A DNA stretch of 28,166 nucleotides from a virus. Lineage: Duplodnaviria > Heunggongvirae > Uroviricota > Caudoviricetes. The DNA lies in the IMG/VR virus record IMGVR_UViG_3300033075_000957, positions 128,001-156,166 of that record. The stretch is one strand, 5' to 3'. A program made the position numbers and the translations under genes. The notes beneath the pieces were generated by a model. The model was not told the DNA's origin and searched no databases. It saw nothing but the letters and a program-made list of their open reading frames with translations. This document shows, one piece after another, positions 3,540-27,899 of this stretch (position 1 is its first letter; each line of letters starts with the position of its first letter).

Positions 3540-5407
3540 AATTTATTCCAAGATTCGCAATAACATGCAACTAAAATAATTTTTAATTCTTCATTAGTCA
3601 GTTTGCTTATACCCGAATTTTCTGAATATTGTTTAAATAATTCTGCGAAAGACAAAGAAATAGACGGTACGAAAGAGTCGAGGCACGCAGCAATAGTTTC
3701 ATCATCCGCGTCTATTAGTTCGGGATTTACGGTTGGATACAGTAGACATTTAGCATCAAAAATTTCTTTCTTTTGTTCATTAGTTAATTGCCGAGCGTCT
3801 TTAACACCAAAAGATTCCATGAGGGTAGACTGAACTAATTTATCGACGCGATCATAGATTTTACTAGCCTGAACTATATTTACAGTATTCGCCCTAACCA
3901 CTCTAGGAGTCTTATCACGAGAACCAACGGGCCTACCTCCTGATTTACCACTCTGCTTTTCTTTCGCCATATTTTCGGATTGTATTTTTTTGATCTCATG
4001 CTTTTGTTGCATTAGCAACAGTGGATTATGGAACGGGCTTGCCTTTTGCGGCATTTCCTCCTTAGTACGAAGTGCCTCGTCCTCATCAATGCGAGCACGC
4101 TCTACAGAAGAATCTTCTTTAAGCAGTTCACGCATACGATCGTCCGATAATATATTACGATCTACTAAATCACGAATAATATTCCAATAAATCTTTTCAT
4201 CAAAAAGATTACTATTATTAAAGGTTACAGTTGGATTATTTCTAAAACCTGTCGCTTTACGGATGATAGTAAATTCGGAATCTAACCATTTCGCAATAGC
4301 AATTCTACAATTGATTATGCGAGAAATAAAATCTTTTAAGCCAATCGGTTTGCCGTTTTCTGCACTTCCATCTTTGTAAAGCTGAATACCTAAACCAAAT
4401 AATATTGGTTCAATACGTTCTTCAAATGCAGCAATTTTATCAATCGGAGGAAAGAATTCTTGATAATCAATCGCACTATCCCAAATGATTTCTCTCTTTC
4501 CTCCGTTTGTATTAGCCTGTGTGATACCCGCTAATTTTTGACCTAATACCGGAGAGGGCATTAGTTGATTTTTATGATCGCCAAGCCGCCAAAGTGCAGT
4601 CGGGCACGAGGCTCCGTCTAACATTGTTATCTTTGCAGTCTTAACCTTTTGATTATATAATAAATCATCAAATATTGAATAAAGCGTAGGTACGGCCCAA
4701 ATTGAAGTGTCATCTTTTTTACAGTATGCTACATAAACATCATTTTCAGGAAGTGGAATAAAAGTTGGATTTCCGTTACCAGTCTTATTTTCAATAGCGT
4801 CCCTAACTTCTTTAGGGTAGGTGGAATAGACCTGTTTTTCAATTTCAGTCGTTGGTGTCCGTTTGTGACCGTTGCTGGTGGACGGTATCTTAATTCCATA
4901 GCGTAATTTTTCAGCCATGGTACCATAAAAATCACCAATAAGCTCTATATTTCCGGGATTGTAGAAGAAATATCGAATAGGAATCTTGTTACCTCGAAAT
5001 TTACCATATTTACGCTGTAAAACAACGTTATTAGATTTTAAATACCACCGTGCAAATTGCTCAACTCGGTCAAAAATATCAGCACGCTTTGACCAAGAAT
5101 CGTAAAAGATCTGTGTACTATCTTCTGTAGCGTGGATAGATAAACCATCAATGGCTAAATCTACCTGTAAATCAACAATTGATCTAACTACACCATTACG
5201 CTTATAGAAAGCGTCGGCCATAAGCATGATTTTTTGCTGGTCTTGCTGGGTACGACAGTCCGGAATAATTTCAGCAGGACGAAAAGCCTCATAGGATTCA
5301 CGACCACCCTGCGAACGAACATACGTATTAGAGGTGCTGTCGTAAAAATTTGCAGCAGCCGCATTCTGATATGTCTCTTGGGGTTTTGAAATATCCTTTT
5401 TCATCAT
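3536..5407 (-). CDS. Portal protein
   Basis: 623 aa, between TerL and the protease. Portal-like segments include FYKRNGVVRSIVDL, KKDDTSIWAVPTLYSIFDDL and LVDRNILS. Confidence 0.85.
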   Translation of the reverse strand: MMKKDISKPQETYQNAAAANFYDSTSNTYVRSQGGRESYEAFRPAEIIPDCRTQQDQQKIMLMADAFYKRNGVVRSIVDLQVDLAIDGLSIHATEDSTQIFYDSWSKRADIFDRVEQFARWYLKSNNVVLQRKYGKFRGNKIPIRYFFYNPGNIELIGDFYGTMAEKLRYGIKIPSTSNGHKRTPTTEIEKQVYSTYPKEVRDAIENKTGNGNPTFIPLPENDVYVAYCKKDDTSIWAVPTLYSIFDDLLYNQKVKTAKITMLDGASCPTALWRLGDHKNQLMPSPVLGQKLAGITQANTNGGKREIIWDSAIDYQEFFPPIDKIAAFEERIEPILFGLGIQLYKDGSAENGKPIGLKDFISRIINCRIAIAKWLDSEFTIIRKATGFRNNPTVTFNNSNLFDEKIYWNIIRDLVDRNILSDDRMRELLKEDSSVERARIDEDEALRTKEEMPQKASPFHNPLLLMQQKHEIKKIQSENMAKEKQSGKSGGRPVGSRDKTPRVVRANTVNIVQASKIYDRVDKLVQSTLMESFGVKDARQLTNEQKKEIFDAKCLLYPTVNPELIDADDETIAACLDSFVPSISLSFAELFKQYSENSGISKLTNEELKIILVACYCESWNKL

Positions 5408-8382: not shown

Positions 8383-9370
8383 GCTTATATCTCCGTATGT
8401 CGTTTGACACCATTCTTTTAATCATATCGGAAAACGATACGCTCGGCTTCCACCCAAGTATACGCTCGGCTTTTTCATAAGACAGGCACGATACAGAAGG
8501 GTCAAGTGGGCGATAGAACTTTTTATTTACGGCAACGAGTATGTTACCGTTTTTGTCGGTGGCTTCCTCGGACATCCCTTCTCCATGCCAGTGTAATTCG
8601 ATTCCGGCAGAAGCAAAAGCATGTGTGCAGAATTCGCGAACAGAATATGTTTTGCCTGTACAAAAAATATAATCATCCGGGACATCCTGTTGCAGCATAA
8701 GATAACTACCCATAGCCATATCTTCTGCATATGCCCAGTCGCGTGTAGCGTTCAGATTGCCTAAAATTAGTGGCTTAGTAACTTTACCATTTACTCTACG
8801 CCCTATATAGTCTGTAATTTTACGACTTACGAACTGCGATCCTCTCCGCTCACTTTCATGATTAGATAAAATACCTACGCTAGCGTGTATTTTATATGAT
8901 TCTCTGTAAATTTTTACAAGATTATGAGCTAATATTTTGGCAGCAGCATATGGTGATTTCGGATTAAATCCTTCCTCTCCTCCAAATTCTTCGACACTAC
9001 CGGCCTGATAAAAACGAGTAGAAGATGAATATTGTTTAATCGCTTCTAAGATGCGAAGAGTCCCAAGACCTGTAATATCAATGGTATGTTCGGGCTGTTC
9101 GAAGGATGTAGCGACAGAAGATAATCCGGCAAGATTATAAAATTCTGTTGGGCGAATTCGACTAATTTGCTTATAAATACTTGCGTCATCAGACAGGTCG
9201 CCGTGAACAATTTCTACTTGATCCAATCCCATTTCTTCGATGAAATCCATAGAAGCGTGTGAAGTGTCCCGAACCATACCATATACTTTATATCCTTTGG
9301 ATAAAAGTATTCTCGCAAGATATGGCGAGGTTTGGCCAGTAAAACCTGTAACTATAGCAGACTTACTCAT
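8360..9370 (-). CDS. gmd: GDP-mannose 4,6-dehydratase
   Basis: Rossmann motif VTGFTGQ, YNLAG.S.V..SF..P, SPYAAAK, NHESERRG..FVSRKI, LGNLNATRDW, MLQQDVPDDY. Confidence 0.9.
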   Translation of the reverse strand: MSKSAIVTGFTGQTSPYLARILLSKGYKVYGMVRDTSHASMDFIEEMGLDQVEIVHGDLSDDASIYKQISRIRPTEFYNLAGLSSVATSFEQPEHTIDITGLGTLRILEAIKQYSSSTRFYQAGSVEEFGGEEGFNPKSPYAAAKILAHNLVKIYRESYKIHASVGILSNHESERRGSQFVSRKITDYIGRRVNGKVTKPLILGNLNATRDWAYAEDMAMGSYLMLQQDVPDDYIFCTGKTYSVREFCTHAFASAGIELHWHGEGMSEEATDKNGNILVAVNKKFYRPLDPSVSCLSYEKAERILGWKPSVSFSDMIKRMVSNDIRRYKHEALTSY

Positions 9371-9698: not shown

Positions 9699-10572
9699 TG
9701 ATTACCTCTTTAGGCACGGCCTTATCTAAATAGTCTGAGCCGTCCATAATAATCGGCTCTACGGTTCCGTCTTCAAATTCTATATTTTGCTTCATCTTCG
9801 CTATCTTGTTTTCGGTAGCTATACGCCAGAGTTCCTCGTCATCAGCAACCTCTGCTCTCCTAGCCCGATCCGTCATCATAATAACTAAACTCGCGAACGT
9901 GTCTCCGCCAATCTTTTGAGTCTTTTCACGCTGTTCACGAGAAGCGTTTAATAGTTTCTGCAAGTTGTTAAATTTATCGGTAAGATCTTTAATATCTTTA
10001 TTAAGTTCGATCTGAATCAGATCGGCGGATTCAAGTTTTTGATGCAGGATTCTTTGCTGCTCGTCCGATTCATCGATAGTCATATCTAGCGATTCTAATT
10101 CGGCATTAAGCTCCTTAAGCATCTGATTGTATCTGCTATATTTTTCCTGATTATCTTGCAGACGCAATTTGACCATGATGGCTAGCTCAATAGCATCTTC
10201 TTCCGAAGGAGTAACGTCTTTAAGCTGGATATGCCAATCGGTCCACTGTTCTAGAAATGATCGCAGACTAACTTTATCATATATTTCTGCAATTTTTTTA
10301 TACCGATCAGTTTTGATAAATTCGTTTTTTAATTCTTCACGACGGCTAAGAATTTTATCTTTTTCTGAACCAGACTTCTTCTGTACCGTCGCATAATATT
10401 CACCCTGCTTCTGTCTTGAAGCATGAATACCAAGCTTCATCGCTTTTCTATAAATAGTATCATCGGATACTCCAAATTCTTTGGCAATATCACTATAACT
10501 TTTGTTTTCCCGCAAAACCATATCAGCTAGTCTAGCGGATTGTTCCGGTGTTAATTTTGGTTTTGCCGCCAT
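9637..10572 (-). CDS. N-terminal HTH plus coiled-coil protein, probable terminase small subunit
   Basis: HTH SYSDIAKEFGVSDDTIYR, a long coiled coil, and a position upstream of TerL. The TerS role is inferred from synteny. Confidence 0.55.
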   Translation of the reverse strand: MAAKPKLTPEQSARLADMVLRENKSYSDIAKEFGVSDDTIYRKAMKLGIHASRQKQGEYYATVQKKSGSEKDKILSRREELKNEFIKTDRYKKIAEIYDKVSLRSFLEQWTDWHIQLKDVTPSEEDAIELAIMVKLRLQDNQEKYSRYNQMLKELNAELESLDMTIDESDEQQRILHQKLESADLIQIELNKDIKDLTDKFNNLQKLLNASREQREKTQKIGGDTFASLVIMMTDRARRAEVADDEELWRIATENKIAKMKQNIEFEDGTVEPIIMDGSDYLDKAVPKEVISGQINADKTENSDEETSEGA

Positions 10573-15012: not shown

Positions 15013-16592
15013 TATCTAACTCCTCGTGGACGACCATTTTTAGCCGTTCTATCTATTGTATTAATTGCTGTATAACTAACGCCAGAGATCGAATTAAATG
15101 TGGTCGGGCTGGTAAGTGTAATAATTCCTAAACCAGCCGCTTCGCATCTGGCAATTTCAGCATTGTATAAACCAGTATTCGCAAACTCTGATGAATTCAA
15201 GATAGCCCAATTCTGATATCCGGGGAATACCGTATCAAGCCAAGGACAACGTAAACCGTCCCACCGATAAGACGGATAATATGTACATGGTATATAAGAT
15301 TGTGTTTGAGGAGTTTTAAACGCTTCGGCCAAGATAAATTTACCCGGACGCTCGTTTCTCAGTGTTTGAAGTACGCCCGTCATATATGGCCGTAATACCA
15401 CATCGGGCATCGCATCTAAACCAATTCCGTCAAACCAAACTAATGCACCGTTATCGATATTGAGTTTACAAATATCATGAGCGACAGGATTAATCGCATG
15501 GCGAGTCGCCGTAGCCAGATTGTAACCTGTAACAGTAGCGGTATCTAATTCCATTCGTAAGAATGGATCGTTCCAGTTTCCACTTGGTTGATAATATAAG
15601 TAACCGGCACCAATATAAAGATATACTTTTACACCATTAGCACGGGACCAGTCGTTAACCTGATAAAATTTACTTGCTAGATTTTCCGGAGTAGACTGAG
15701 CAATGTTCATCGGAAATTCGTAATTAGGTATCTTGCCCGGCAAACACCAAATCATTACTCCGTTTTCACCCTTAGCAGCCATGTTAGCTGGGGACGGGAA
15801 GAACGTTTCGAGTACAGTGTTCCAATCAACAGTTCCGCTTGATGGATATACTCCACTTATAATGTTATAGCCACGCGGATTACCCGAAGACTCTGTTTGT
15901 CCAAAGAATTGACCGTGAATACGTCCAGACATCACCGGAGGTCGCTGATTCGGCCATGCAGAAGTAAACCAATCTGTATAAGGCTGTATCATTGCCAAAC
16001 TGACTCCGGTCGTTACCGGATATCCGGAACACTCACGTAGCCAAATATTCCAGCTACGCGATTCACCCGAGGCATAGAAATCATTAATCTTTTCGGTACC
16101 GTGATCTGCCGTATAGCTGTGGTCGCCAAAACTTTCTATACCATACGATCCAGACACTATTACCGTACGAAGTACGTGAGCATATGGATAATTATTTGCA
16201 ATACCAATAGCTCTTGTTCCAGCGTGCAAACACATCGCTGGAATATTTAAACCGGCGTTAGCATCGTTTCCAGTAGAAAAGAACGAAATGCCCCAAAAGG
16301 AATTTCGAAGTGAATTAACATACTGAGCACCTATAGGGCGATTTTTCCAAGATATATCAGCAAGGAAAATACCGGTTGGCACATTGCCAACACCACTAGC
16401 TCCCCAACCACAATCTATACGCCACTTTAACGCGGGCATGTTGCCAGTAGTTAAATTACGAACAGTCACATCAAGATTAATACCAGAAGTGACAATAGTT
16501 CCTGTAACTGTAACGGCATAACCGCTACCTACAACCGAATTATCGGTCTTTGAAAATATACCGGAAGTGTAAGCGGCGATACTAAAAGGCAT
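15012..16592 (-). CDS. Putative glycoside-hydrolase-like (TIM-barrel) virion protein
   Basis: NGVKVYLYIG, WFDGIGLDA and FILAEA recall barrel strands of glycoside hydrolases; aromatic-rich. Confidence 0.45.
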   Translation of the reverse strand: MPFSIAAYTSGIFSKTDNSVVGSGYAVTVTGTIVTSGINLDVTVRNLTTGNMPALKWRIDCGWGASGVGNVPTGIFLADISWKNRPIGAQYVNSLRNSFWGISFFSTGNDANAGLNIPAMCLHAGTRAIGIANNYPYAHVLRTVIVSGSYGIESFGDHSYTADHGTEKINDFYASGESRSWNIWLRECSGYPVTTGVSLAMIQPYTDWFTSAWPNQRPPVMSGRIHGQFFGQTESSGNPRGYNIISGVYPSSGTVDWNTVLETFFPSPANMAAKGENGVMIWCLPGKIPNYEFPMNIAQSTPENLASKFYQVNDWSRANGVKVYLYIGAGYLYYQPSGNWNDPFLRMELDTATVTGYNLATATRHAINPVAHDICKLNIDNGALVWFDGIGLDAMPDVVLRPYMTGVLQTLRNERPGKFILAEAFKTPQTQSYIPCTYYPSYRWDGLRCPWLDTVFPGYQNWAILNSSEFANTGLYNAEIARCEAAGLGIITLTSPTTFNSISGVSYTAINTIDRTAKNGRPRGVR

Positions 16593-17612: not shown

Positions 17613-18794
17613 TCCTCTAGTACTCTATATACACGAAATCGCTAACGCAAAATGGAACGGTACGCAAGTTTCATTCATTATTGAAAATTCAGAAACTTCA
17701 ATAAAAATCTCACAAAGACCAAACGTGGTCGTCTACCTCGTCTATAATTTGTGGTCGAAAGGTTTTCACATTCAGCGTGTGACGGGGACCAGTACCTCGA
17801 TAACAAAGTGTATAAAAATGGCCGTGGAAATCCCATAACGTATATTGGGAAAGTCTGGAAATACTAGAAACGACGCGGTATTTAGGCCACCGGTAAGGAT
17901 TTTGACATAGCGGGGATTTCACATCACATTCTATTCGGGGCCATTTCTCCTTTCTGCCTCGGTTAGATAACGGATGCCTTCCTACGGGTTTCCTTACTCT
18001 CACACGCGTTATACGGATTTCTGGCTTTACAGGGCCTACGTATAGAGTAATACATAAGAATACAGTGTGTTTCACACTCAGTATTAGCCTTGTATATACT
18101 CTGTATTGTTGATCTCTGGAAAGGGCGTCGGTCTAAACTTATAAAATTCTAGCCTTATTGTGGACTGGACATTAAGGCTGCGTCGGGAAGTGGGAGGCAG
18201 AAATGCTTCCCATTTTCATTTAACGGCCCGCTACGGCGATTTGGGCCATGGAACGGTACACGAAGTGGTCAGTGATGCGTTTCGCCTCTAATACCCTTTA
18301 AACGCCTTTTACGCGGATTGATCATTTCTTGATCTCCCGTCCGATTCCAGAATGTAAAGTTTAAACTTTAAAAGTTGTTGAATGCACCGGCATCCCCTAT
18401 TCTAGTGCCAGTGAGGGTTTTGGCTCAAAAGGCCCCGCGATTTTTCATCCTGCTCTTTCGTACCGTCGATCGATTTCAAACTGATTAAAATAAGCAGATA
18501 ATCTAAACCCATAGGTTAAAAAGATTAACATACTCTAATCATCAATTGCAACAAACAACAAGGAGAAGGATAAGGACAAGGGCGAGGTTTTCTAAAAAGG
18601 GGGCGTGGGTAAAATGTGGATGCCACCGCCGCCACTCCCTGCTTTCAATACCTTCTGAAAGTTTTGCAATAACCCTCCCCCACCCCTATAGGGGATCAAT
18701 TGTTGAATTCTTTATTTTTTTATATGTTTAAACTTCTAACCTTGCAAACCCGATACAACTGGGTACACTTGTGCGGGGCGTGTAACCCCTTGGA

Positions 18795-18823
18795 TTGTAA
18801 CCCCTTGCAATGGAATTTAGAAT
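18795..18823 (+). promoter_or_regulatory. Sigma70-type promoter TTGTAA-17 bp-TAGAAT
   Basis: Canonical spacing. It overlaps the direct repeat TGTAACCCCTTG (18781-18792, 18796-18807). Confidence 0.6.
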
Positions 18824-18841
18824 ATGCTAACTTTTACCGAT

Positions 18842-19855
18842 ATGCTCGCCCTTGCCCCTCGCACCCAAACGGCACCCGAACATCGGGACGACGATACCAA
18901 ACAACACCCTAATACCGCCGGTTCTCGCTATCTCCAGAGAATAGCGGAGGGCATGGACCCGAACAGTGCCCTAATCATGGCACGTAATGAGGGGGAGAGG
19001 AAAGCCAAACGGATACTTAACGAACGCCCCGATACCCTCAATAGGGGATATAAGGCCGCGAATTACGATCAATTCGTGGCCGATGTTGGTGGCATGTTAG
19101 TGGAGCGTATACTTTCCGCCCCCAATGACGATGCCAGAAAACTGATAACCATATCCTCTTGTGTGGGAAGGGTAGATCGGCAATACAATAAGGCTACCCG
19201 GTATTGGGTATGTTTGTACTTTGTTAGGCTCAACTACGTGTTGGCCCCCCACAATGGGGATAGTACCCCGATTGTGGTGCCGTTCGATTCGGATTGGGTT
19301 AGGGTAACTAAGAAACAGTACAAACTTGCCCGCAAACATGCTACCCACCAATTGGAGGGGCATCCGTGGATTGAAACGTACGAATACCGTACAACGCCCC
19401 GACGCCTAACAGAATCCGATCACGACGAGTCCACGGGGTACCATAAAGGGGACAATAGGGTATGGTATGCAATCAATACCCTGTCGGATGCCGAACGCAC
19501 CGCTCTGCACTTGTACGGTATGGGTGTGCGTTCCCCGATTATTGGACAAGCGGTGTTTGGGAAGCGTAAGGGTGCAGCGGCTGCGGCCCGTATTCTTGTG
19601 GCCCGAACACTTGCCAAACTCGCGTCCACTCTCGGGCAACTTGACAGCAACCCTAACATCGCCCGATACCGTGATTGTTCGGAAGCCGTTAGGGCCTACT
19701 ACGGTGGAACCCGCTTCGCTGACCGCCCCGAACGGGCACCGAACGAGCCGAAGAAACTTGACCCGAACGACCGCCGAACGACTCGTTCGGATTGGACTAG
19801 GGAATCTACCCGCAGGAGGCTGCGGGCCAACATTGGAAAGGCGGCAACCATCTAA
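18842..19855 (+). CDS. Protein with C-terminal sigma-4/LuxR-like HTH (paralog A)
   Basis: AINTLSDAERTALHLYGMG...IGQAVFG...ARTLAKL. The start was moved from 18824 because that ATG abuts the -10 element. Confidence 0.65.
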   Translation: MLALAPRTQTAPEHRDDDTKQHPNTAGSRYLQRIAEGMDPNSALIMARNEGERKAKRILNERPDTLNRGYKAANYDQFVADVGGMLVERILSAPNDDARKLITISSCVGRVDRQYNKATRYWVCLYFVRLNYVLAPHNGDSTPIVVPFDSDWVRVTKKQYKLARKHATHQLEGHPWIETYEYRTTPRRLTESDHDESTGYHKGDNRVWYAINTLSDAERTALHLYGMGVRSPIIGQAVFGKRKGAAAAARILVARTLAKLASTLGQLDSNPNIARYRDCSEAVRAYYGGTRFADRPERAPNEPKKLDPNDRRTTRSDWTRESTRRRLRANIGKAATI

Positions 19856-20300
19856 AAACCTAACAACCTAACGCGTGGCGAACTCGATCAATCGAGGGGG
19901 CAGCAGTACGCACTAGTGGCCTAACGCTTCCCTAACGCCCAGCCATGCGGTTTTCAATCTTTTCTGAAAAAAGAATAAGATATGTATAGTGTACACTAAC
20001 CGATTGCGAGCATTATTAGGGGTGTAAGCGACAATTGATACAACACACACGCAAGCGTATTGCATGTTGTTTGTATTGTTTGTTGTTTGGAGTGTTGCAT
20101 ATGGCATGCAAAGCGTTCTCGGTGCGTGGGCTTCGCTGGAGGAAGCCACGCGTTCGCAAGTGGTATAAGACCGCTGCTGCCCGTGCGGCTCGGCGACTCT
20201 GGCAGCGGCATGGCGAGGATGCACCGCTCAAGTCCACCTCGCGTGGATACGCCGATTAGGGCAAGGTCGAACATTGCGGTTTCACCGCAGGAGGTTTGTC

Positions 20301-20498
20301 ATGCAGAAGTTTATTCGGGTCGTGCTGGACGATCGTGGTTATAAAGTGCTGACCCATGAAGGTCAGTTTGTGTCTGTCCATCCTCAGCGGCACCTTGCCG
20401 TGCGGGAGGCTCAGGTCTTGTGCGATATCCTTGCCGCGATCGGCAAGGGCGTGGTTTGGTCGATCGATTGCAGGACGCCGCTCGGCGGCTCATGCTGA
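20301..20498 (+). CDS. Small hypothetical protein (MQKFIRVVLDD..., 65 aa)
   Basis: Strong AGGAGG SD before ATG 20301. Confidence 0.7.
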   Translation: MQKFIRVVLDDRGYKVLTHEGQFVSVHPQRHLAVREAQVLCDILAAIGKGVVWSIDCRTPLGGSC

Positions 20499-20726
20499 AG
20501 TCAACCGGTCAATAATCACCACTCACTTGTTCAGGGGAACCTGAGCGGATGGGATTAGACGGTACACAAAGGTAAAACATGTGCATGTTTCCTGTACCGT
20601 TCATCTTTGCGGCGAATGCCGATGACGAAAGTCGTCGGTGGGGTTTACGCTAGCGTGTGCTAGTGTTACTGAATGGGCTGAGTGCTCAGCCCGAGTTTTC
20701 TTGCCACTGAGTGGCAGGAGGTTGGT

Positions 20727-22163
20727 ATGCAGAACGCTCTTGATCGTCTCTTCTCTCACATCGCCAACAGCGAAGTCGCCGGGATGATCTCCCGACTGAT
20801 GTCGCTCGCTGGCTGCCCCGAGGGTGGTCGCGGGGTCCAGTTCGTGTGTGGTGTGAAGCACTACATGGGGCTGCCTGAGCAGTATTACAAGGGGTGGCTG
20901 CGTGGTAACGCGATGTACACGGTGACGCGTGGACTCGTGTACCGCAACATGAAGGATGGCCACTTTGGGAAGTGGGAGGTGCCGCCCCACATCCTGAAGC
21001 AGCACGCGGCGGAGATGCGGGCACAGGCCCGCCGAAAGATGCTGGCCTTCAAGACCCGATACGATGATCTTGACAAGGCCGACATGGTGGCACTCGTCTT
21101 CGAGATGTCTGTGGACGAAGACACCTCAGACGGCGAGGGCATGAGCATCATGGCCGAACTGGAAGAGATGACCCGCACCGAACTGATTCGGCGGGCTCGT
21201 GAACTGACAGACGATCGTGGGCAGAACATGCTGAACTGCGAATTCGCCGAATCGGTGGTGAATTCCTACGTCTTGCAGGTGCTCGACTACTGTCGTCAAG
21301 ACGAGGTGTGGTCTTCATCGGATGCGGAGTACCGTCTGACCCACCGCAAGCCCCGACTGCGGGGAATGAAAGCGATCGCTGAGGCGGTATTCAAGGCCGA
21401 CTTCGCCCGCCGCAGTGTGGCACACTTCGATCCGCTCAGCCCATCGGCACCCCGTATCGGATTCGCTACGCGTGGCACGAACAACGCCGAGTACTACGTC
21501 ACCATCGAGGGTGTGTCTCGTCGGGTGCCGTATGGCGAATACAAGAAGACGCAAGCGGCCTTGCATCTGATGCGGTGCCAAGGGCTGCACAATCCTCCGG
21601 TGGCCGCTTTCGTCACCGAACCCACACCACGCACATGGGGAGACACGCTTAGTGATCACCCCAACTACAACGAACCGGCGAGGGTGTTCGAACTGCTTGA
21701 AGTGGCAAACCTGAGCCCTCGCGAGAAGGAGGTGTTCGGCATGTCCTGTCGTGGCTACAGCAAGAAGCAGATCGCCGAAACGCTCGGCATCAGCCAGAAC
21801 ACTGTCGGACCTCTCGTGAGTCGTGCCACGGAGAAGATGAAGTCCGCCGATGTTCGCAAGGCATTCGAGCACGGACCCGGCAAGCTGGACTTGGAGATCG
21901 ATCGCGGTACCCCAACCGAACGCGTTCGCCCGATGATGACAGATCATCAGACGCGTGGGCTGTCGCGGACCTTCCTTCCTCCCGCACACCCAACCATCCA
22001 CTACATCGAAGCCGGACCTTGCTCGGCGAGCGAATCACCGGCGGCGATGGCTGCAATCGAACACGCGAAGGTGCTGGCCGCACGCAAGGCGGAGGAAGCC
22101 GAACGTGCCAAGGAACGAATTCGCAACATCAAGACCTTCGTGAGTCTTGACAGGGCCGGTTGA
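20727..22163 (+). CDS. Large protein with sigma-70 region 4/LuxR HTH (paralog B)
   Basis: LSPREKEVFGMSCRGYSKKQIAETLGISQNTVGPLVSRATEKM, AGGAGG SD before ATG 20727, and GC3-rich codons. Confidence 0.8.
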   Translation: MQNALDRLFSHIANSEVAGMISRLMSLAGCPEGGRGVQFVCGVKHYMGLPEQYYKGWLRGNAMYTVTRGLVYRNMKDGHFGKWEVPPHILKQHAAEMRAQARRKMLAFKTRYDDLDKADMVALVFEMSVDEDTSDGEGMSIMAELEEMTRTELIRRARELTDDRGQNMLNCEFAESVVNSYVLQVLDYCRQDEVWSSSDAEYRLTHRKPRLRGMKAIAEAVFKADFARRSVAHFDPLSPSAPRIGFATRGTNNAEYYVTIEGVSRRVPYGEYKKTQAALHLMRCQGLHNPPVAAFVTEPTPRTWGDTLSDHPNYNEPARVFELLEVANLSPREKEVFGMSCRGYSKKQIAETLGISQNTVGPLVSRATEKMKSADVRKAFEHGPGKLDLEIDRGTPTERVRPMMTDHQTRGLSRTFLPPAHPTIHYIEAGPCSASESPAAMAAIEHAKVLAARKAEEAERAKERIRNIKTFVSLDRAG

Positions 22164-22177
22164 GTAAACCTTCAGAT

Positions 22178-22208
22178 CGGGCAGGCTAACGCTTGCCCGT
22201 TTCTATTC
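22178..22208 (+). terminator. Probable intrinsic terminator
   Basis: CGGGCAGGC-TAAC-GCTTGCCCG followed by TTTCTATT. Confidence 0.6.
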
Positions 22209-22260
22209 CTTCGGGATGGGATGCAATGACGTATCCCAAGTGCAGGAGCGTTGTATGTGT

Positions 22261-22677
22261 ATGGATCGCAAGATTGTCCTGTTGAGCGTGTTGGCGTTTC
22301 TGTGTCTGTGCTGTGGCCGTGCCCCATCAATCGAGAAAGCAGTCAGCCCGCAATTGCTACATGCTCTGTGGATGGTTGAGTCGGGCGGCAAAGATAATCC
22401 TCCGGATGGTGATGGTGGTAAGGCGATCGGCCCGTATCAGCTATGGGAGTGCTATTGGAAGGATGCTATTGAGCATGACCCATCGATCGGTGGTACCTAT
22501 CAGGACTGCCGAAAGAAGGAGTACGCCGAGAAGATCATCGTGGCGTACATGTGCCGATACGCTCCGAAGAACGCGACGGCGGAGCAGATTGCGAGGATAC
22601 ATAATGCAGGTCCGCAGGGCTGGAAAAAGAAAGTTAGCCTGAAATATTGGGAAAAAGTAAAGAAAAATTTGAAGTAA
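22261..22677 (+). CDS. Lysozyme-fold muralytic enzyme, i-type/destabilase-like, with N-terminal signal or anchor
   Basis: Catalytic VES, GPYQL..YWKDA, YM.RY and ARIHNAGPQGW. The N-terminus is hydrophobic (MDRKIVLLSVLAFLCLCC) and the SD is AGGAG. Confidence 0.8.
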   Translation: MDRKIVLLSVLAFLCLCCGRAPSIEKAVSPQLLHALWMVESGGKDNPPDGDGGKAIGPYQLWECYWKDAIEHDPSIGGTYQDCRKKEYAEKIIVAYMCRYAPKNATAEQIARIHNAGPQGWKKKVSLKYWEKVKKNLK

Positions 22678-23237
22678 CGACTAATCCCAACGTCGGGCCA
22701 CTAGGAATAGTGGTCCGAACGTTTCAACGGTACAGAAAGCCATCCCTCCATCAAGGTAGCCCCTTAGTATCGCCGATCGCATACTAGGGCACGGTCGCCG
22801 GTGGGTATGGTAGAATGGTGATATAACTCTTCTGTATCGTGTGGCTTGGGAATCGCCACGAACCCAATAAAGGGGTAATATGGACCAGCATCACTGGTAT
22901 GGCATGCTGCCACTTCTATGCGAACTACCGGGGTTCGTCTATAGACAGCACAGTAGCGGGATTCCGCCCGTATACCCTAACAAATACCAAACGCAAGGTT
23001 CGGGTTTTGTTCCAACCACTTATACCTATGTGGAGAAACGCCACTAGCCACTATGATAGGGGATTATAAAAAACAACTTGCGGTGTAACCGATTCGCTTG
23101 CGGGTAGGGGAGTGTATACGTCGGGTGCCAACTGGCACCAACCCACCCCGCAACCGCTACCAGTTGTAACGGGTTTCTTGCGTGGTGTTTGTTTTTAGTT
23201 TGTGGTTTTATACCACAGAAAGGATTGTGTTACTTTT

Positions 23238-23651
23238 ATGACGACAGCAACAATTCAGAGGCAGAAGTTTTCTCCTGCCGAACTCCGTGAACGCATCGCG
23301 GAGTTGCGTAAGGTGCAGCGTTCCAACGCCAAGCGGCGTGGTCGTGCTCCTGCTGTATGGCACGCTCTTTTCAATGGGCTGAATGTCGGCGAACAGATCG
23401 TCGTTCAGACCAATGCGAAGAATGTGGATGGGAATGGCGATAAGGTGTCGCTGCCCAAGTTCATGTCCGTGAGGAATTGGCTCCAGCGTCGGGCCAAGGT
23501 CGATGGTCGTATGTTCCTTGTGTTCGGTGCCAGCGATGCCGATGGTAACGGCGAGATGCTGGTGATCCGCTCCGAAGATGATCCCGAGAAGATCGTCAGC
23601 GAGGACACTGAGGACACCGATGAATCGGACGACGAGTCCGAGAATCAGTAA
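23238..23651 (+). CDS. Hypothetical basic protein with acidic tail (possible nucleic-acid binder)
   Basis: GAAAGGA SD; RRGR..W..LF..LNVGEQIVV core; D/E-rich tail. Confidence 0.75.
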   Translation: MTTATIQRQKFSPAELRERIAELRKVQRSNAKRRGRAPAVWHALFNGLNVGEQIVVQTNAKNVDGNGDKVSLPKFMSVRNWLQRRAKVDGRMFLVFGASDADGNGEMLVIRSEDDPEKIVSEDTEDTDESDDESENQ

Positions 23652-23906
23652 CTAACCGGGGGATAGGTAATATCTTCCGTCCCCCGTGTTAGGAATGATG
23701 CGGGGTTTCTTTTTACCTGCGGTACGCTATAAACGCATGCCGCAGGTTTTGCCCTAGTTGCAGGCTCCGTTCCTTAGCGAATAACAGAACCTATAGAAGT
23801 ATAGGTCATACGTCTATCGCCCCAAAAATAGCGGATACCAACCGGGCGTTCCCTGTGTCTATAATAGGACACTGGGAAATTTGTCAATCTTTCAGAAAGG
23901 ATCGTC

Positions 23907-24077
23907 ATGAACGAGAACAGTCGTCAGCGTTCGCGTGATTATCGCCGTGCTCATGCGAGCAAGTTCAAGCAGATCGGCGATGGTGTTTTCGGTGGATACA
24001 AGAGTGGCGTAATGAATGGTCCCGAACCATCGACGGATCGGGGTCGGCGGCGTGCCGCTAAGAAAAAGACTGGTTAA
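23907..24077 (+). CDS. 56-aa Arg/Lys-rich peptide (MNENSRQRSRDYRRAH...RGRRRAAKKKTG)
   Basis: Below the ORF-track cutoff. GAAAGGA SD and codon usage like its neighbours. Confidence 0.65.
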   Translation: MNENSRQRSRDYRRAHASKFKQIGDGVFGGYKSGVMNGPEPSTDRGRRRAAKKKTG

Positions 24078-24375
24078 CACTAACCAGTGGCGATAGGCCA
24101 TTCCTATTATCTCATACCTATGGTGGTCGGGTTGAGATTATGGCACCACTAGGTGGCTACAGCCTGCGATTCCGTAACCAATCGGAGCGATGAAAAGTGT
24201 GGCGGTGATCCTCAGCCCAATGAGGTAGAATAGACGCCGATATATTCGTAACATTTCTCGGCAAGCGTAGTCTACTACGACTAGAGTGTGGAGCGTCATG
24301 AACAGGCCCGATGGTCTGTGACAGTAGCGGGCGATACCCGAGGAAGGAAACCTGAATGGTTTTTTTTGTTGCCCG

Positions 24376-24564
24376 AACGATACGGGGGAAGTATAGTCTA
24401 GATGTTCCCGGATATCCGGGTTTAGAAAAACATCTGGAAACTATGGACGAATCGCCATAGCAATATTGTGGTAGTCAGGACCGAATTGAGTGCTGGCCTA
24501 AACTCTGTAACCACAGAGGGTCATGTGCAATTCACTGGAATCCATCTATTACTTCCGTATCGTT
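24376..24564 (+). ncRNA. Unknown structured RNA, copy 1
   Basis: Closing stem AACGATACGG/CCGTATCGTT. Core AATATTGTGGTAG (24462-24474) and GAATCCATCT (24538-24547) are shared with copy 2. Confidence 0.65.
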
Positions 24565-24579
24565 ATTGCCGCAGGCAAC

Positions 24580-24651
24580 GGGCGATTAGCTCAGCGATAG
24601 AGCAAGGTGCTCATAATACTTAGGTCGTTGGTTTGAATCCAACATCGCCCA
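24580..24651 (+). tRNA. tRNA with CAT anticodon (Ile2 or elongator Met), no encoded CCA
   Basis: Acceptor GGGCGAT/ATCGCCC+A, D-arm GCTC/GAGC, anticodon loop CTCATAA, T-arm GTTGG-TTTGAAT-CCAAC. Confidence 0.88.
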
Positions 24652-24665
24652 TTAGGGAGAATGTC

Positions 24666-24878
24666 ATGTTTCAAGTTGGCGATCGTGTGCAGGCGAACAT
24701 TTCTGTGCTTCAAACGGATAACTCCATCCGGGTTTACGAGAATCGGACGGGCAAAGTGGTTTCAACTTTGCCGCCGCCTTTGGTAATGGTTCAACTCGAT
24801 GTACCTATTGATAGTGGTACTGAATACGAGATGAGAACGGTGTATACCCGTGTAGAGAATTGCTCAATTTGCCTCTAA
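24666..24878 (+). CDS. Small SH3/KOW-like beta-barrel protein, paralog 1
   Basis: FQVGDRV...TGKVV...VMVQLD; GGGAG SD; clear paralog at 27228. Confidence 0.8.
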   Translation: MFQVGDRVQANISVLQTDNSIRVYENRTGKVVSTLPPPLVMVQLDVPIDSGTEYEMRTVYTRVENCSICL

Positions 24879-24900
24879 ATCGCCCCTAAAACACTAGGAA

Positions 24901-24931
24901 TTGTCCACAATTGTGGATAACTTGTGGAAAA
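24901..24931. promoter_or_regulatory. DnaA-box cluster 1
   Basis: TTGTCCACA (24901-24909), TGTGGATAA (24912-24920, perfect) and TGTGGAAAA (24923-24931). Confidence 0.7.
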
Positions 24932-25282
24932 CCACCCTTAATTGGGGTGTGCTTAATATATGGGACACATATTCCCATCCCAGCATATATCCAACCATCC
25001 CTTCCCTATCCCCCTTTCTCTTCTGTCTTCTGTATGTAATGAGGGTACTTTTGGTATAAAACCTCATTATTTCGCTAAAAACGAGGTTTTAGAGCAATCT
25101 GCTCCCTCATTGATCCCCTGTCTAGGGAATCAATTAAACTGTCTGATTGAATATTATCAATCAAGAAAACAGCGAACACCACCCACAATTAAATACGTCC
25201 ACAGATATGCGGTATGACTGTAAAGGCCAATTCCGCAATTGGAGTGCAGATAGGGTCCGATAACAAACGTAAATCACTAATT

Positions 25283-25567
25283 ATGGAAACCCCCATGTCT
25301 CAATCACCATTCATTGCCGTGCATACTTCTCCTGTTGTTTCATTAAAAAGTGTCACCGGTTCGGATAATATACCCGGATGGTATAAGGACACAACCACGA
25401 ACCATCTTTGGCTCGTTAATGCGTCTGGTCTTTTGATAGGGTTTATCAGTTCTCATGACGGAAGATTTTTCTATCACACCCATGAGACAGATTTATTTTC
25501 CCGTCTTTCACGAATTTCTGATGGGACAAAAATTGAACTGATTCAACCCTCGTCCAAGGATACATAA
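25283..25567 (+). CDS. Hypothetical protein
   Basis: Open frame heading a run of small ORFs. The start is uncertain (25214, 25283 or 25295). Confidence 0.6.
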   Translation: METPMSQSPFIAVHTSPVVSLKSVTGSDNIPGWYKDTTTNHLWLVNASGLLIGFISSHDGRFFYHTHETDLFSRLSRISDGTKIELIQPSSKDT

Positions 25568-25628
25568 TGGATAAGCCAATGCCGAACGTATTGGGCCAAT
25601 TAGTCCGACCACCCATTTAGGGGATTAT

Positions 25629-25790
25629 ATGTACGCTCTCCAACGTTTTGACGGATTAACTTGGGGCCGTTTCACCAAAGATGAGGCGTATCGTTTAGCC
25701 AATCTCTACCGTCGTTGTGGAGCAAGCGATGTGCCGGTCAAAATCCAAAACCACTGGGTTTCTCAACCAAATGGTAGTTGGACCACATGA
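25629..25790 (+). CDS. 53-aa hypothetical protein (MYALQRFDGLTWGRF...)
   Basis: AGGGG SD; tiles between neighbouring ORFs; not in the ORF track. Confidence 0.55.
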   Translation: MYALQRFDGLTWGRFTKDEAYRLANLYRRCGASDVPVKIQNHWVSQPNGSWTT

Positions 25791-25800
25791 GGGTCCGATA

Positions 25801-25998
25801 ATGTCTAAAGAAGAAATCGCTGCGTCTATTCATCAGATGATGCAACAAGATGCTGAAACAGTAGTCAAAGCTATAGCCGATTCCTGTCGTCTAATTGCTC
25901 GGGCTTGTAACGAAGAATTAGACGGTACTTCCGAGCAATTTTGGGGTGAAGTCGCTCAAAAAATTGACGAGGTACATAAATATATGGAAGAACACTAA
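25801..25998 (+). CDS. Small helical hypothetical protein (MSKEEIAASIH...)
   Basis: GAGGG SD before ATG 25801. Confidence 0.65.
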   Translation: MSKEEIAASIHQMMQQDAETVVKAIADSCRLIARACNEELDGTSEQFWGEVAQKIDEVHKYMEEH

Positions 25999-26770
25999 GC
26001 GGACAGAAATGTCCGCAATCAAACTAAATCAGTGTGAAGCAAGAGAATAGGCCCCTCTTGCCAGATCCGAGCTATACTTCGTACACTGTTTGTCTGTGCT
26101 GGGTTACACCGGCATGGACAATTTAGCTCCGCAAGTCGGAGATAGGGACACTGGCAGTTCGTCTAGCAAAGACCCGAAATTAAAACTTTTAAGACGCGAA
26201 TGATTCCCGTAAGGGATTATAGGTTAGCACATACTAGATCGCCCGCAAGGGCGAGAGTGCTGTCTGATTACAGATAGAAGTATCTGTTGTCGGATTCCTC
26301 GGCTATAGCCGAGCTTTCGAAGTATGCAAAGGTAATGAGGGTCTAGCCCCTCAACGCCGTATAGACCGTAAGGTGAGGGCGTTTAGGTATAAGCCGAAAG
26401 GCCAGAGTAATACCACCTTTCATACTTCATCTGTCGTGGCGATAACTTCAAGACGATAGGTTTAAGGAGTTGTTGGTTTCAGAGAGTATATGTTCATAAC
26501 CAACCTCTGCACACGAGGATACTCGCATAACCGTGTGTATATTATTAGCGAGTTGCGATTACGGATAGTCTGGTCTTAATAATTTGCAAATTAAGGCTGG
26601 CATACACCAAAAACACTGTCGTATCCGTAGTCTAAGTTTTAAAATACTGCACAAACAGGTGGTGCTGTTGTGGAGTATGGACAGTTACCTAGATGGTTTA
26701 GACATAGGCCATCGAGGGTTCCATCGTTGTTCTCCCCTTGCCTACGCGATAATTTCAACTAGGCAAGGTT
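25999..26770 (+). ncRNA. Large structured non-coding RNA candidate
   Basis: Continuous helices with GNRA loops (GCGGACA-GAAA-TGTCCGC, TCCC-GTAA-GGGA, TCGCCC-GCAA-GGGCGA, ACC-GTAA-GGT, GCC-GAAA-GGC), a multibranch domain, and no credible ORF. Confidence 0.65.
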
Positions 26771-26935
26771 TGACGGTACAGAAGAGTGATAGGGCATAAA
26801 GGATACTACCAATCGATAGAGTATCTAGTCGTGCCAAAAGATAATATTGTGGTAGGTGCCGGACTAGCATCGATTCTCCCTAGGTAAGATTTCGAGCTAG
26901 CGAAGCGAACCCATCTTTACTTTTCTGTATCGTTA
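26771..26935 (+). ncRNA. Unknown structured RNA, copy 2
   Basis: 19-bp closing stem 26771-26789/26917-26935 with four G-U pairs. Core AATATTGTGGTAG (26843-26855) and GAACCCATCT (26907-26916). Confidence 0.65.
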
Positions 26936-27227
26936 TAAATGAAACAATGATAGGTCCACGTATCACCCTCCATTAATGGCACGTTTGTGTCTTGGGATAT
27001 CCCTGTTGGATCGGTGAGAATGGATAGTCCGACAATAATAAAGGACAATCTGACAATGCTCTAGACATTAATATGGAGCAGCAAAGTCAGACACTAAATC
27101 AGGTACTCTGACGCTTTGCGAAATTAACTAGTCCCAAAGCGTTGGAAATCCTGCTATCGTTTTTTGATAAAACGCTGGTTTTGTTCGGCCTTGTGACCGA
27201 GGCCCTTAACGATATAAGGGGACGAAT

Positions 27228-27455
27228 ATGTCATTCAAAATTGGCGAGCGTGTTTCCGCCGATATCTCTGTAGCACAACCTACTGGTCCTAATCGTATCT
27301 ATTACAATAAAACAGGGAAGATCATCGAGGTTCGGGATAATTCGTTGGTGCAGATACGTTTTGATGAACCAATCGATGCGGGAACAGAGCGTGAAATAAG
27401 AACTGTTTATGCGAAGGCAAGGAATTGCGTTTACTGTTTGAAGGGAGAAGCCTGA
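27228..27455 (+). CDS. Small SH3/KOW-like beta-barrel protein, paralog 2
   Basis: 33 of 69 ungapped identities to 24666..24878 (hand count); AAGGGG SD. Confidence 0.82.
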   Translation: MSFKIGERVSADISVAQPTGPNRIYYNKTGKIIEVRDNSLVQIRFDEPIDAGTEREIRTVYAKARNCVYCLKGEA

Positions 27456-27456
27456 T

Positions 27457-27519
27457 AAGCAGTTTATTTCGGCAAAATTATACACTAAAATACTTTTAGT
27501 TCGAATCCAGCATCGCTCA
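27457..27519 (+). pseudogene. Decayed tRNA / tRNA 3' remnant
   Basis: 27499-27521 matches the 3' end of the intact tRNA (24631-24653) at 20 of 23 nt, while the 5' half no longer pairs. Confidence 0.55.
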
Positions 27520-27899
27520 TTGAAGAGAGAAAGAGATCGCCACATGGTCCCTTATGAAAAGATAGGCGTGACGGAGGAAGAGTACATTAGGCTGACTCTT
27601 CTGTACCGTTCAGGGCGTTATTCCTTTCCTCTTGGGGGATAGGATGCGTGAATAGTCTACAATGACTACAATGGGTCTAGGTCGAACGCTGTTTTTAACG
27701 AAATAATGACCACGCTGTTAGGGGATAAAATGGTCAATCCCCTATTCTAATAGTGCTTTCAAAAAAGCCTATTTTTACAGCACCAAATGAACTTCTGACC
27801 CCCCTCCGGATCAACAAAAAGTATACAAGAAGACTAGTGTATCCAGATTTGATCACTTTTCACACTTCCCACCCTCTATAACCATGACAGAGAGGTAAG

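What the first reader, a model, noticed from the sequence alone, without database searches (positions are those of the whole stretch)
17652..27611. Family of dispersed RNA-like elements all closed by the same covarying stem (ACGRTAC ... GTAYCGT)
Seen in sequence: six inverted-repeat pairs share one arm sequence but enclose different cargo. They are 18253-18466 (ACGGTAC/GTACCGT), 20558-20601 (GACGGTACA/TGTACCGTT), 22727-22840 (ACGGTACAGAA/TTCTGTATCGT), 24376-24564 (AACGATACGG/CCGTATCGTT), 26771-26935 (19 bp) and 27570-27610 (GACGG..GGAAGAGT/ACTCTTCT..CCGTT). One position is G-C, G-U or A-U in different copies. The mismatches are G-U on the plus strand, which fits pairing in plus-strand RNA rather than a DNA palindrome. 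Inference: this is a common handle, such as a processing site (like the T7 early RNase III sites) or a binding site for a phage protein, that releases or protects a set of phage small RNAs. I do not recognise it as a described family.
Basis: partly seen in the sequence, partly recalled or inferred. Interest (0 to 1): 0.85.

Follow-up and report, generated by a model that had tools for sequence, protein, structure and literature searches.

The report
Genome-wide phage motif bracketing structured RNAs
The six "closing stems" are real, but each arm is one copy of a 15-base motif that this 156-kb phage carries about 80 times on both strands, mostly inside genes and conserved in a distant relative, so it is a genome-wide signal of unknown reader rather than a handle private to small RNAs.

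Summary
All six inverted pairs sit at the stated coordinates and are far beyond chance: 5 core pairs against 0.03 in dinucleotide shuffles. The stem is not a covarying helix. Each arm is a copy of an asymmetric 15-nt motif, RACGRTAC plus a purine tail.

- **Copy number.** The whole 156-kb phage holds about 82 copies, against 1-5 in shuffles. They lie on both strands, and about 80% are inside ORFs in every frame.
- **Arrangement.** Copies are evenly spaced, alternate in strand, and are convergent whenever they are close.
- **No arm-arm covariation.** Arms of a pair match no better than randomly re-paired arms (p=0.63).
- **Conservation.** A relative with 52-68% protein identity has the same motif. 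It keeps 8 of 10 alignable sites, including synonymous positions.
- **Early region.** Convergent pairs bracket a real family of structured RNAs of 110-310 nt. These share a 3' module and show compensatory changes between orthologues.

My best reading is a clade-specific recognition site read copy by copy, most simply on DNA. Inverted pairs were co-opted as the closing helix of early ncRNAs. The scan's other notes concern this same window only.

The parts
17656..17670 (+). Single motif copy with no partner
   Evidence: PWM 15.7 bits. No complementary stretch within 600 nt.
18253..18466 (+). Convergent pair with 214-nt intergenic cargo
   Evidence: This is the weakest fold of the set: z -1.5 on +, -2.9 on -.
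20558..20601 (+). Convergent pair forming a 44-nt hairpin
   Evidence: Folds to -15 kcal/mol, z -3.6.
22727..22840 (+). Convergent pair with 114-nt structured cargo
   Evidence: z -3.9 on +, -1.8 on -.
24376..24564 (+). Convergent pair closing a 189-nt structured RNA, 16 nt upstream of tRNA-Met. It has the shared GGAAUCC module.
   Evidence: z -6.4. Module seen. Positional counterpart in the relative: an element followed by a tRNA 18 nt later.
24580..24651 (+). tRNA-Met (CAT)
   Evidence: ARAGORN and Rfam, 61.6 bits.
26771..26935 (+). Convergent pair with a 19-bp closing helix and 165-nt structured RNA
   Evidence: z -4.1. Shares a 13-nt core with the element at 24376-24564.
26945..27172 (+). 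Structured RNA without intact motif arms, homologous to the arm-bearing 308-nt element of the relative
   Evidence: BLAST match. Alignment shows compensatory pairs and truncated arms.
27570..27610 (+). Short hairpin. The 3' arm is a perfect motif copy; the 5' arm lacks the TAC of the core.
16089..16103 (-). Motif copy inside the 526-aa virion gene
   Evidence: PWM 18.4 bits. The core is kept in the 84%-identical relative although 4 of 8 codons differ there.
10376..10390 (-). In-ORF motif copy (late gene)
   Evidence: PWM 20.7 bits.
8487..8501 (+). In-ORF motif copy, antisense to a late gene
   Evidence: PWM 21.4 bits.
3663..3677 (+). In-ORF motif copy, antisense, in the portal gene
   Evidence: PWM 18.7 bits.
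3054..3068 (-). In-ORF motif copy
   Evidence: PWM 15.0 bits.

Best explanation
**Shown.** The stems are built from a clade-specific dispersed repeat, the asymmetric 15-nt motif RACGRTAC-RGRARRG. About 82 copies are spread over the whole 156-kb genome, on both strands and mostly inside ORFs. They are evenly spaced, tend to alternate in strand, and close neighbours are always convergent. The copies are kept by purifying selection at the nucleotide level.

**Inferred.** Each copy is read on its own as a sequence. The simplest setting is duplex DNA, bound by a protein of this phage clade. That would make it a 'self' or landmark site, comparable to uptake sequences, Chi sites or mycobacteriophage stoperators. 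A facing pair is the preferred working unit.

**Shown.** In the ncRNA-rich early region (genome 145 kb through the record end to 17 kb), such pairs bracket members of a family of structured RNAs.

**Inferred.** When transcribed, the two copies fold into the basal 14 bp of the RNA's closing helix. This helix is extended to 19-27 bp in several members. There it probably serves as a stabilising or processing stem. The RNA helix would then be a co-option of the genome-wide site, not the reason the site exists.
For: - **Over-representation.** 82 sites at 12 bits or more, against 1-5 in shuffles.
- **Location.** 54 of 68 strict copies lie in ORFs, 27 sense and 27 antisense, in all frames. There is no enrichment at gene boundaries.
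- **No tie to the mRNA strand.** The sense:antisense ratio is 1.34, lower than the 1.5-2.0 of weak chance matches.
- **Spacing.** Inter-unit CV is 0.66 against 0.98 for random placement. No two units lie closer than 449 nt, against a random median minimum of 27 nt; both p<0.001.
- **Orientation.** 67 of 86 neighbour steps alternate in strand (p<5e-5). There are 13 convergent neighbours within 213 nt, against 1 divergent and 0 tandem.
- **Singles are real singles.** About 47 copies have no hidden partner.
- **Arms are independent draws.** Shown.
- **Conservation in a relative.** A 163-kb relative (52-68% protein identity) has the same motif and the same pairing. It keeps 8 of 10 alignable sites at 13-15 of 15 nt, while flanks are 66-84% identical.
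- **Selection on nucleotides.** In the RNA-ligase gene both arms are identical through third codon positions. Overall third-position identity there is 40%, and the encoded residues differ. One site in the relative differs from ours only by synonymous changes.
- **The RNAs are real.** One orthologous RNA has arms in one phage and lacks them in the other.
Against: - No reader protein is identified.
- No DNA-level process I know predicts close pairs that are convergent only, with 40-300 bp between the sites.
- The motif lies exactly in register with the extended RNA helices. In one orthologous pair a motif-edge position changed A-U to G-C. Position 8 of the motif shows AU:7, GC:2, GU:1 and no A.C in the intergenic set. 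Pairing may therefore be under some selection there.
- In-ORF close pairs (68-109 nt apart) also form hairpins, with z down to -4.9.
- Gene calls are crude longest-ORF calls.
- Only two relatives carrying the motif were found.
Confidence: 0.4

Rival explanations
1. First reader's model. The helix made by the two arms is an RNA handle, either a processing site (host RNase III or a phage nuclease) or a protein-binding site. It releases or protects RNAs, and the in-ORF pairs also act on mRNAs.
For: - Close copies are always convergent, which gives one fixed helix polarity.
- Intergenic elements are structured and fold better on the transcribed strand.
- Closing helices reach 19-27 bp, long enough for RNase III.
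- Compensatory changes occur between orthologues.
- A hammerhead-like ribozyme follows one element in the relative, which suggests processed precursor transcripts.
Against: - About half of the copies are singles without a partner.
- Antisense copies are as frequent and as conserved as sense copies.
- The arms do not covary, and A.C mismatches are common.
- Even spacing is unrelated to gene boundaries.
- The phage has no RNase III.
Confidence: 0.2
2. Strand-specific signals on single-stranded DNA, such as priming or replisome-loading sites like plasmid ssi signals. Single copies would serve either strand. Convergent pairs would fire outward as bidirectional starts. The structured 'cargo' would fold as ssDNA.
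For: - Copies are on both strands, evenly spaced about 2.5 kb apart and independent of transcription.
- Close pairs are convergent only.
- The phage has its own DnaB-like helicase, Toprim primase, Pol III alpha and RecA.
- G.T pairs are also tolerated in ssDNA folds.
Against: - Known DnaG-type primases read only three bases.
- 21 or more 'origins' is implausible.
- The intergenic elements look like RNA genes, lying next to tRNAs and a ribozyme.
- There is no direct evidence.
Confidence: 0.12
3. Ends of mobile or recombining cassettes: terminal inverted repeats, or attC-like or PeSL-like junction sites that shuffle early-region modules.
For: - The convergent geometry has the best-conserved 7 nt outermost.
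- The early region is mosaic between the two phages, and elements lie between the shuffled blocks.
- One RNA has arms in one phage only.
- A gene of 177-179 aa is bracketed in both phages.
Against: - In-ORF copies are conserved at orthologous positions and do not interrupt the ORFs.
- Cargoes are not homologous, as MITE cargoes would be.
- No transposase, tyrosine or serine recombinase, or reverse transcriptase is present.
- Inverting the bracketed segments would break most of the ORFs.
- The deletion variant seen in a sludge run does not end at the motif.
Confidence: 0.1
4. Guide and target network. The ncRNA arms act as antisense seeds that pair with the sense and antisense copies in phage transcripts, or with the DNA.
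For: - It explains why both polarities are conserved and why the arms keep a fixed sequence instead of covarying.
- It explains why the RNA family carries both arms.
Against: - The arms are locked in a stable intramolecular helix.
- Targets are not placed near ribosome-binding sites or gene ends.
- No effector is known.
- It does not explain the even spacing or the in-ORF pairs.
Confidence: 0.07
5. A second class of Y-like RNAs bound by the phage's own Ro60, with the conserved stem as the Ro60 site.
For: - The phage encodes Ro60, with TROVE plus vWA domains.
- Y RNAs are defined by a conserved 5'/3' stem and a variable interior (PMC4201824).
- The motif loosely resembles the vertebrate GGUCCGA site.
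Against: - Three units carrying the canonical bacterial motif GNCGAAG and T-arms lie directly upstream of the Ro60 gene. The present motif does not fit that consensus.
- No Rfam Y RNA hit was found.
- The model cannot explain the in-ORF or antisense copies.
Confidence: 0.05

Closest known systems
DNA uptake sequences (Haemophilus USS, Neisseria DUS)
   Same: A short asymmetric motif, hugely over-represented and present on both strands. Most copies lie inside ORFs in several frames, are evenly spaced, and are kept at orthologous positions. Inverted pairs in intergenic DNA fold as RNA hairpins. This comparison rests on my own knowledge of that literature.
   Different: USS and DUS are bacterial chromosome features driven by transformation, and their inverted pairs have short loops. 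Here the genome is a lytic-type phage, no uptake process applies, and the loops are 40-300 nt and hold structured RNAs.
Stoperators of cluster A mycobacteriophages and dispersed C1 operators of phage P1
   Same: Asymmetric 13-17-bp protein sites scattered in tens of copies through a phage genome, some of them within genes.
   Different: Stoperators are oriented with transcription, lie mostly in intergenic DNA, and serve a repressor of a temperate phage. Here orientation is independent of transcription, copies are mostly in ORFs and form convergent pairs, and no integrase was found.
T7 early RNase III processing sites; rRNA processing stems
   Same: Long helices in polycistronic transcripts that flank RNAs or cistrons. 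Here the closing helices of the intergenic elements reach 19-27 bp.
   Different: RNase III sites have no shared sequence, are local hairpins between genes, and do not occur as single half-sites inside ORFs.
REP/REPIN elements and integron attC sites
   Same: Inverted 7-bp core sites with a variable centre, repeated many times, and sitting between cassettes.
   Different: Both are extragenic and depend on a RAYT transposase or an IntI integrase. Neither enzyme is present here, and most copies are in ORFs.
Y RNAs and YrlA (Ro60 partners)
   Same: Paralogous RNAs of 100-200 nt with a conserved terminal stem, a variable interior and a tRNA-like arm stacked on the stem. A Ro60 gene is present in the same genome.
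   Different: The motif does not fit GNCGAAG. Canonical candidates lie elsewhere in the genome. There is no canonical T-loop.

Membership tests
Any Rfam family (including Y RNA, 6S, tmRNA, ribozymes) | Covariance-model score at or near the gathering threshold | tested here: not met
   Only tRNA-Met reaches threshold in the window. Nothing matches the elements at genome 2050 and 6170 or those of the relative.
RNase III processing sites (T7 type) | A continuous helix of about 20 bp in the transcript | tested here: inconclusive
   Met by 3-4 intergenic elements with 19-27 bp. Not met by the others or by the in-ORF pairs, which have 8-13 bp.
RNase III processing sites (T7 type) | Cleavage by RNase III, with RNA ends in the stem | not testable with these tools
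   No RNA run is listed for this phage. The phage has no RNase III gene. The host is unknown.
Structured RNA with a covarying closing helix | Arm-arm covariation above controls | tested here: not met
   65/133 observed against 66.2 expected, p=0.63. 87.5% against 85.4% paired, with 52 of 500 shuffles as high. G.U:A.C is 33:25.
REP/REPIN | Extragenic location and a RAYT (Y1 transposase) in the genome | tested here: not met
   About 80% of copies are in ORFs. No PF01797 match.
Integron attC / cassette array | An IntI tyrosine recombinase, with sites only between cassettes | tested here: not met
   No PF00589 match. Copies lie inside conserved ORFs.
MITE / transposon terminal inverted repeats | Homologous internal sequence between copies, insertion polymorphism, and a transposase | tested here: not met
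   Cargoes are unrelated except for a short 3' module. ORFs run through the pairs. No transposase or recombinase was found.
Y RNA (Ro60 ligand) | The GNCGAA(N)G motif in the 5' strand of the terminal stem (PMC4201824) | tested here: not met
   The motif consensus lacks it. Canonical units lie at genome ~29.3-29.9 kb.
USS/Chi-like genome-wide recognition motif | Strong over-representation on both strands, inside ORFs, with even spacing | tested here: met
USS/Chi-like genome-wide recognition motif | Conservation at orthologous sites, including synonymous positions | tested here: met
   8 of 10 alignable sites are kept.
USS/Chi-like genome-wide recognition motif | A known reader (uptake receptor, RecBCD-type enzyme or repressor) | not testable with these tools
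   No candidate was singled out. The phage has several HTH and sigma-like proteins.

The most novel reading that the evidence does not exclude
This phage clade marks its own genome with a 15-nt tag, kept by selection at about 1 copy per 2 kb even through coding sequence. The tag is read by an unknown clade-specific factor. The same tag, as facing pairs, delimits a new family of tRNA-minihelix-like early ncRNAs. On this reading, one recognition system links genome-wide DNA or transcript sites to a set of small RNAs. No such dispersed-repeat system has been described for phages, as far as I know.
Probability: 0.3. Interest if true: 0.85.

Novelty: new variant of a known kind. Interest (0 to 1): 0.72.

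Why it matters
A motif of about 20 bits of information, held at roughly 80 evenly spaced places in a phage, implies a strong sequence-specific process. The motif persists through coding sequence and across about 50% protein divergence. The process is not yet known; candidates are self-recognition, replication, packaging, protection or RNA handling.

It also comes with natural controls, because TerL relatives at 38-48% identity lack the motif.

The work also reveals a new family of structured early RNAs. They occur in a phage that also carries Ro60, Y-RNA-like units, an RNA ligase, a SpoU methylase and about a dozen tRNAs, so RNA biology is clearly central to its infection strategy.

Tried and rejected
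- **Public phage records.** INPHARED has no near match. The closest TerL is about 24% identical.
- **Exact 14-mer scan of IMG/VR.** It gave only single chance hits. A pattern joining the 3' module to the 3' arm gave 73 single hits. The few loci with 2-3 motif copies have them all on one strand.
- **IMG/VR relatives by TerL.** Relatives at 38-48% identity carry no motif, including two near-complete records of 128 and 160 kb.
- **JGI metagenomes.** No relative of the 526-aa protein was found.
- **Sequencing runs.** No RNA holder is listed. DNA holders are sludge and wastewater runs with short contigs. One contig skips window 24189-25649, but its ends are not at the motif.
- **Literature search for the motif.** It returned only primers.
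- **Splicing or intron idea.** ORFs run through the pairs, and pair lengths fall in all three residues mod 3.
- **Invertible coding segments.** Inversion would introduce stops in 10 of 12 cases.
- **Promoter idea.** Sigma-70-like hits in the region are fewer than in shuffles. A search for a T7-type RNA polymerase found nothing, but the control was silent, so that result is inconclusive.
- **Retron idea.** No reverse transcriptase was found.
- **Hidden partners for single copies.** None were found.
- **Enrichment at gene boundaries.** None was found.


Full report
**Setting.** The window is the last 28 kb of a single 156,166-bp virus record with 39.5% G+C, rated 99% complete. TerL and portal lie at window 5443-7590 and 3536-5407 on the minus strand. 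By crude longest-ORF calls, genes run on the + strand from 1-100 kb, on the - strand from 100-145 kb, and on + again from 145 kb to the end. The finding lies in this last stretch. It is poor in ORFs and mosaic in G+C.

**Check of the observation.** The 5' arm of the sixth pair lacks three core bases. The 7-mer core occurs 28 times in the window against 6.5 +/- 2.7 in shuffles. Five convergent core pairs within 250 nt stand against a mean of 0.03 and a maximum of 2 in 2000 dinucleotide shuffles of 17652-27611.

**The arms are copies of a genome-wide motif.**
- The core is followed by a purine tail and preceded by a purine, giving 15 informative positions.
- The most frequent 10-mer of the whole genome is part of this motif.
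- A weight matrix finds 82 sites at 12 bits or more, against 1-5 in shuffled genomes.
- Of 68 strict copies, 54 lie in ORFs: 27 sense and 27 antisense, in all frames. The other 14 are intergenic.
- Copies show no preference for gene boundaries.
- Their sense:antisense ratio of 1.34 is below that of weak chance matches, which is 1.5-2.0. Orientation is therefore not tied to the mRNA strand.

**Arrangement.**
- Neighbouring copies alternate in strand in 67 of 86 steps (permutation p<5e-5).
- Thirteen convergent neighbours lie within 213 nt. Only one divergent pair (177 nt) and no tandem pair are that close.
- When close pairs are treated as units, the 64 units are more evenly spaced than chance. 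The CV is 0.66 against 0.98. The minimum gap is 449 nt against a random median of 27 nt.
- About 47 copies are true singles with no cryptic complement nearby.
- Even the singles alternate somewhat more than expected (29 against 22.3, p=0.02).

**The helix does not covary.**
- Beyond the motif the arms are usually not complementary.
- The R:Y position that looked covarying in the window is A.C in 12 pairs genome-wide.
- Transcribed-strand G.U against A.C mismatches are 33:25. Intergenic pairs give 12:5 and in-ORF pairs 21:20.
- Re-pairing arms at random gives as many Watson-Crick matches as the real pairs, in both phages.
- A formal pair count on ten intergenic elements is not above its shuffle control.
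- The helix therefore exists because two copies of one motif face each other.

**Relatives.**
- TerL relatives in IMG/VR (38-48% identity) have no copies.
- Two closer relatives turned up in Logan assemblies.
- The first is a 3-kb contig at 84% protein identity. It keeps the copy homologous to window 16102, although half of the surrounding codons differ.
- The second is a 163-kb contig, of which I read 40 kb. Its SpoU, RNA-ligase and radical-SAM proteins are 60, 52 and 68% identical to ours.
- That 40 kb carries 30 copies of the same motif, again in convergent pairs.
- Of ten own sites that can be aligned, eight are motif sites in the relative. They are 13-15 of 15 nt identical, where the flanks are 66-84% identical.
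- In the RNA-ligase gene both arms, 443 and 442 nt apart, are identical through third codon positions. Overall third-position identity there is 40%. The tail keeps the motif while the amino acids change.
- In the radical-SAM gene the sites are lineage-specific. One of them differs from our sequence only by synonymous changes.
- This pattern shows selection on the nucleotides, with some turnover.

**The intergenic elements are real RNAs.**
- Two more elements lie outside the window, at genome 2050-2225 and 6170-6328. At least five more occur in the relative.
- Most fold far better than shuffles, and 5 of 6 fold better on the + strand.
- They share a module near the 3' end. A hairpin ending in GGAAU-CC abuts the 3' strand of the closing helix, much as a T arm stacks on an acceptor stem.
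- The orthologues 2050 and r6980 have diverged almost completely in the centre. They keep a 27-bp closing helix with one compensatory and three compatible changes. They also keep the T-like stem through an A-U to G-C swap.
- Window 26945-27172 is homologous to a 308-nt arm-bearing element of the relative. It shows two compensatory pairs in one helix, but it has lost its arms.
- In both phages one element sits 16-18 nt before a tRNA.
- In the relative a hammerhead-like ribozyme follows another element (E=5e-4, below the Rfam threshold).
- Elsewhere a convergent pair brackets a whole gene of 177-179 aa in both phages. Other pairs bracket parts of genes.

**Gene content.** I found no RNase III, Y1 transposase, tyrosine or serine recombinase, or reverse transcriptase. 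Present are Ro60, an RNA ligase, a SpoU methylase, peptide deformylase, radical-SAM enzymes and NAD salvage. Also present are class II RNR, Pol III alpha, DnaB, a primase, RecA and many glycosyltransferases.

**Interpretation.** Several results say that each copy is recognised as a sequence in its own right. These are the single copies, the equal standing of both orientations, the even spacing, the conservation inside ORFs and the lack of arm-arm covariation. The most economical setting for such recognition is duplex DNA. The convergent-only rule and the in-register extension of the RNA helices say that facing pairs are a unit and that, once transcribed, they matter for the early RNAs.

I therefore put a DNA-level, clade-specific recognition site first (0.4), with co-option as an ncRNA closing helix. 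The pure RNA-handle model comes second (0.2). An ssDNA start-signal model (0.12), cassette ends (0.1), a guide-target network (0.07) and a second Ro60 ligand class (0.05) follow. None of these is demonstrated, and the reader protein is unknown.

Noticed in passing
genome 30753-32360 (locus L200:10753-12360), outside the window: The phage encodes a Ro60/Rsr orthologue with TROVE and Ro60-vWA domains (E 1e-35 to 1e-45). Two tRNAs follow it. The 163-kb relative also has this gene.
   Followed up: partly
L200:9330-9900 (genome ~29.3-29.9 kb): Three repeated units each begin with GGGCCGAAGAU, which fits the bacterial Ro60-binding motif GNCGAAG. They carry perfect T-arms. They are candidate YrlA-like Y RNAs upstream of the Ro60 gene. 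Rfam gives no Y RNA hit, and ARAGORN calls one of them tRNA-Glu.
   Followed up: partly
L206:1545-1625 (relative phage): A hammerhead-type ribozyme core (CUGAUGA ... GAAA ... GUC) lies 17 nt after an arm-bearing element. Rfam scores it 29.5 bits, E=5e-4, below the gathering score.
   Followed up: partly
window 26197-26296: A 100-nt stretch of the 1.2-kb ORF-free region is 97% identical to the relative, where coding DNA is about 65-75% identical. It is probably the core of a conserved large ncRNA.
   Followed up: no
window 24189-25649: One contig of a sludge metagenome run joins 24188 to 25650. It thereby lacks the element at 24376, tRNA-Met and three small ORFs. This is a natural deletion variant whose ends are not at the motif.
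   Followed up: no
window 27490-27520 and 24667-24878 / 27228-27455: A tRNA 3'-half remnant lies at 27490-27520. Two paralogous small ORFs of about 70-75 aa mark a duplicated cassette.
   Followed up: no
window 18824-19855 and 20682-22163: The 493-aa protein has a GerE / sigma-70 region 4 HTH (E 3e-10). These genes and the destabilase-like lysozyme at 22216-22677 have 55-61% G+C in a 39.5% G+C phage, which suggests foreign origin.
   Followed up: partly
genome 0-17 kb (L199): A cluster of RNA-related genes lies next to several tRNAs: RNA ligase, SpoU 2'-O-methylase, an HD-domain protein, two radical-SAM enzymes and peptide deformylase. AT-rich minus-strand ORFs look like homing endonucleases (HNH, DUF723).
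   Followed up: no
genome-wide (exact position not located): The 10-mers GACCAAGACC and GACCCAGACC each occur 14 times, which suggests a tandem coding repeat somewhere in the genome.
   Followed up: no
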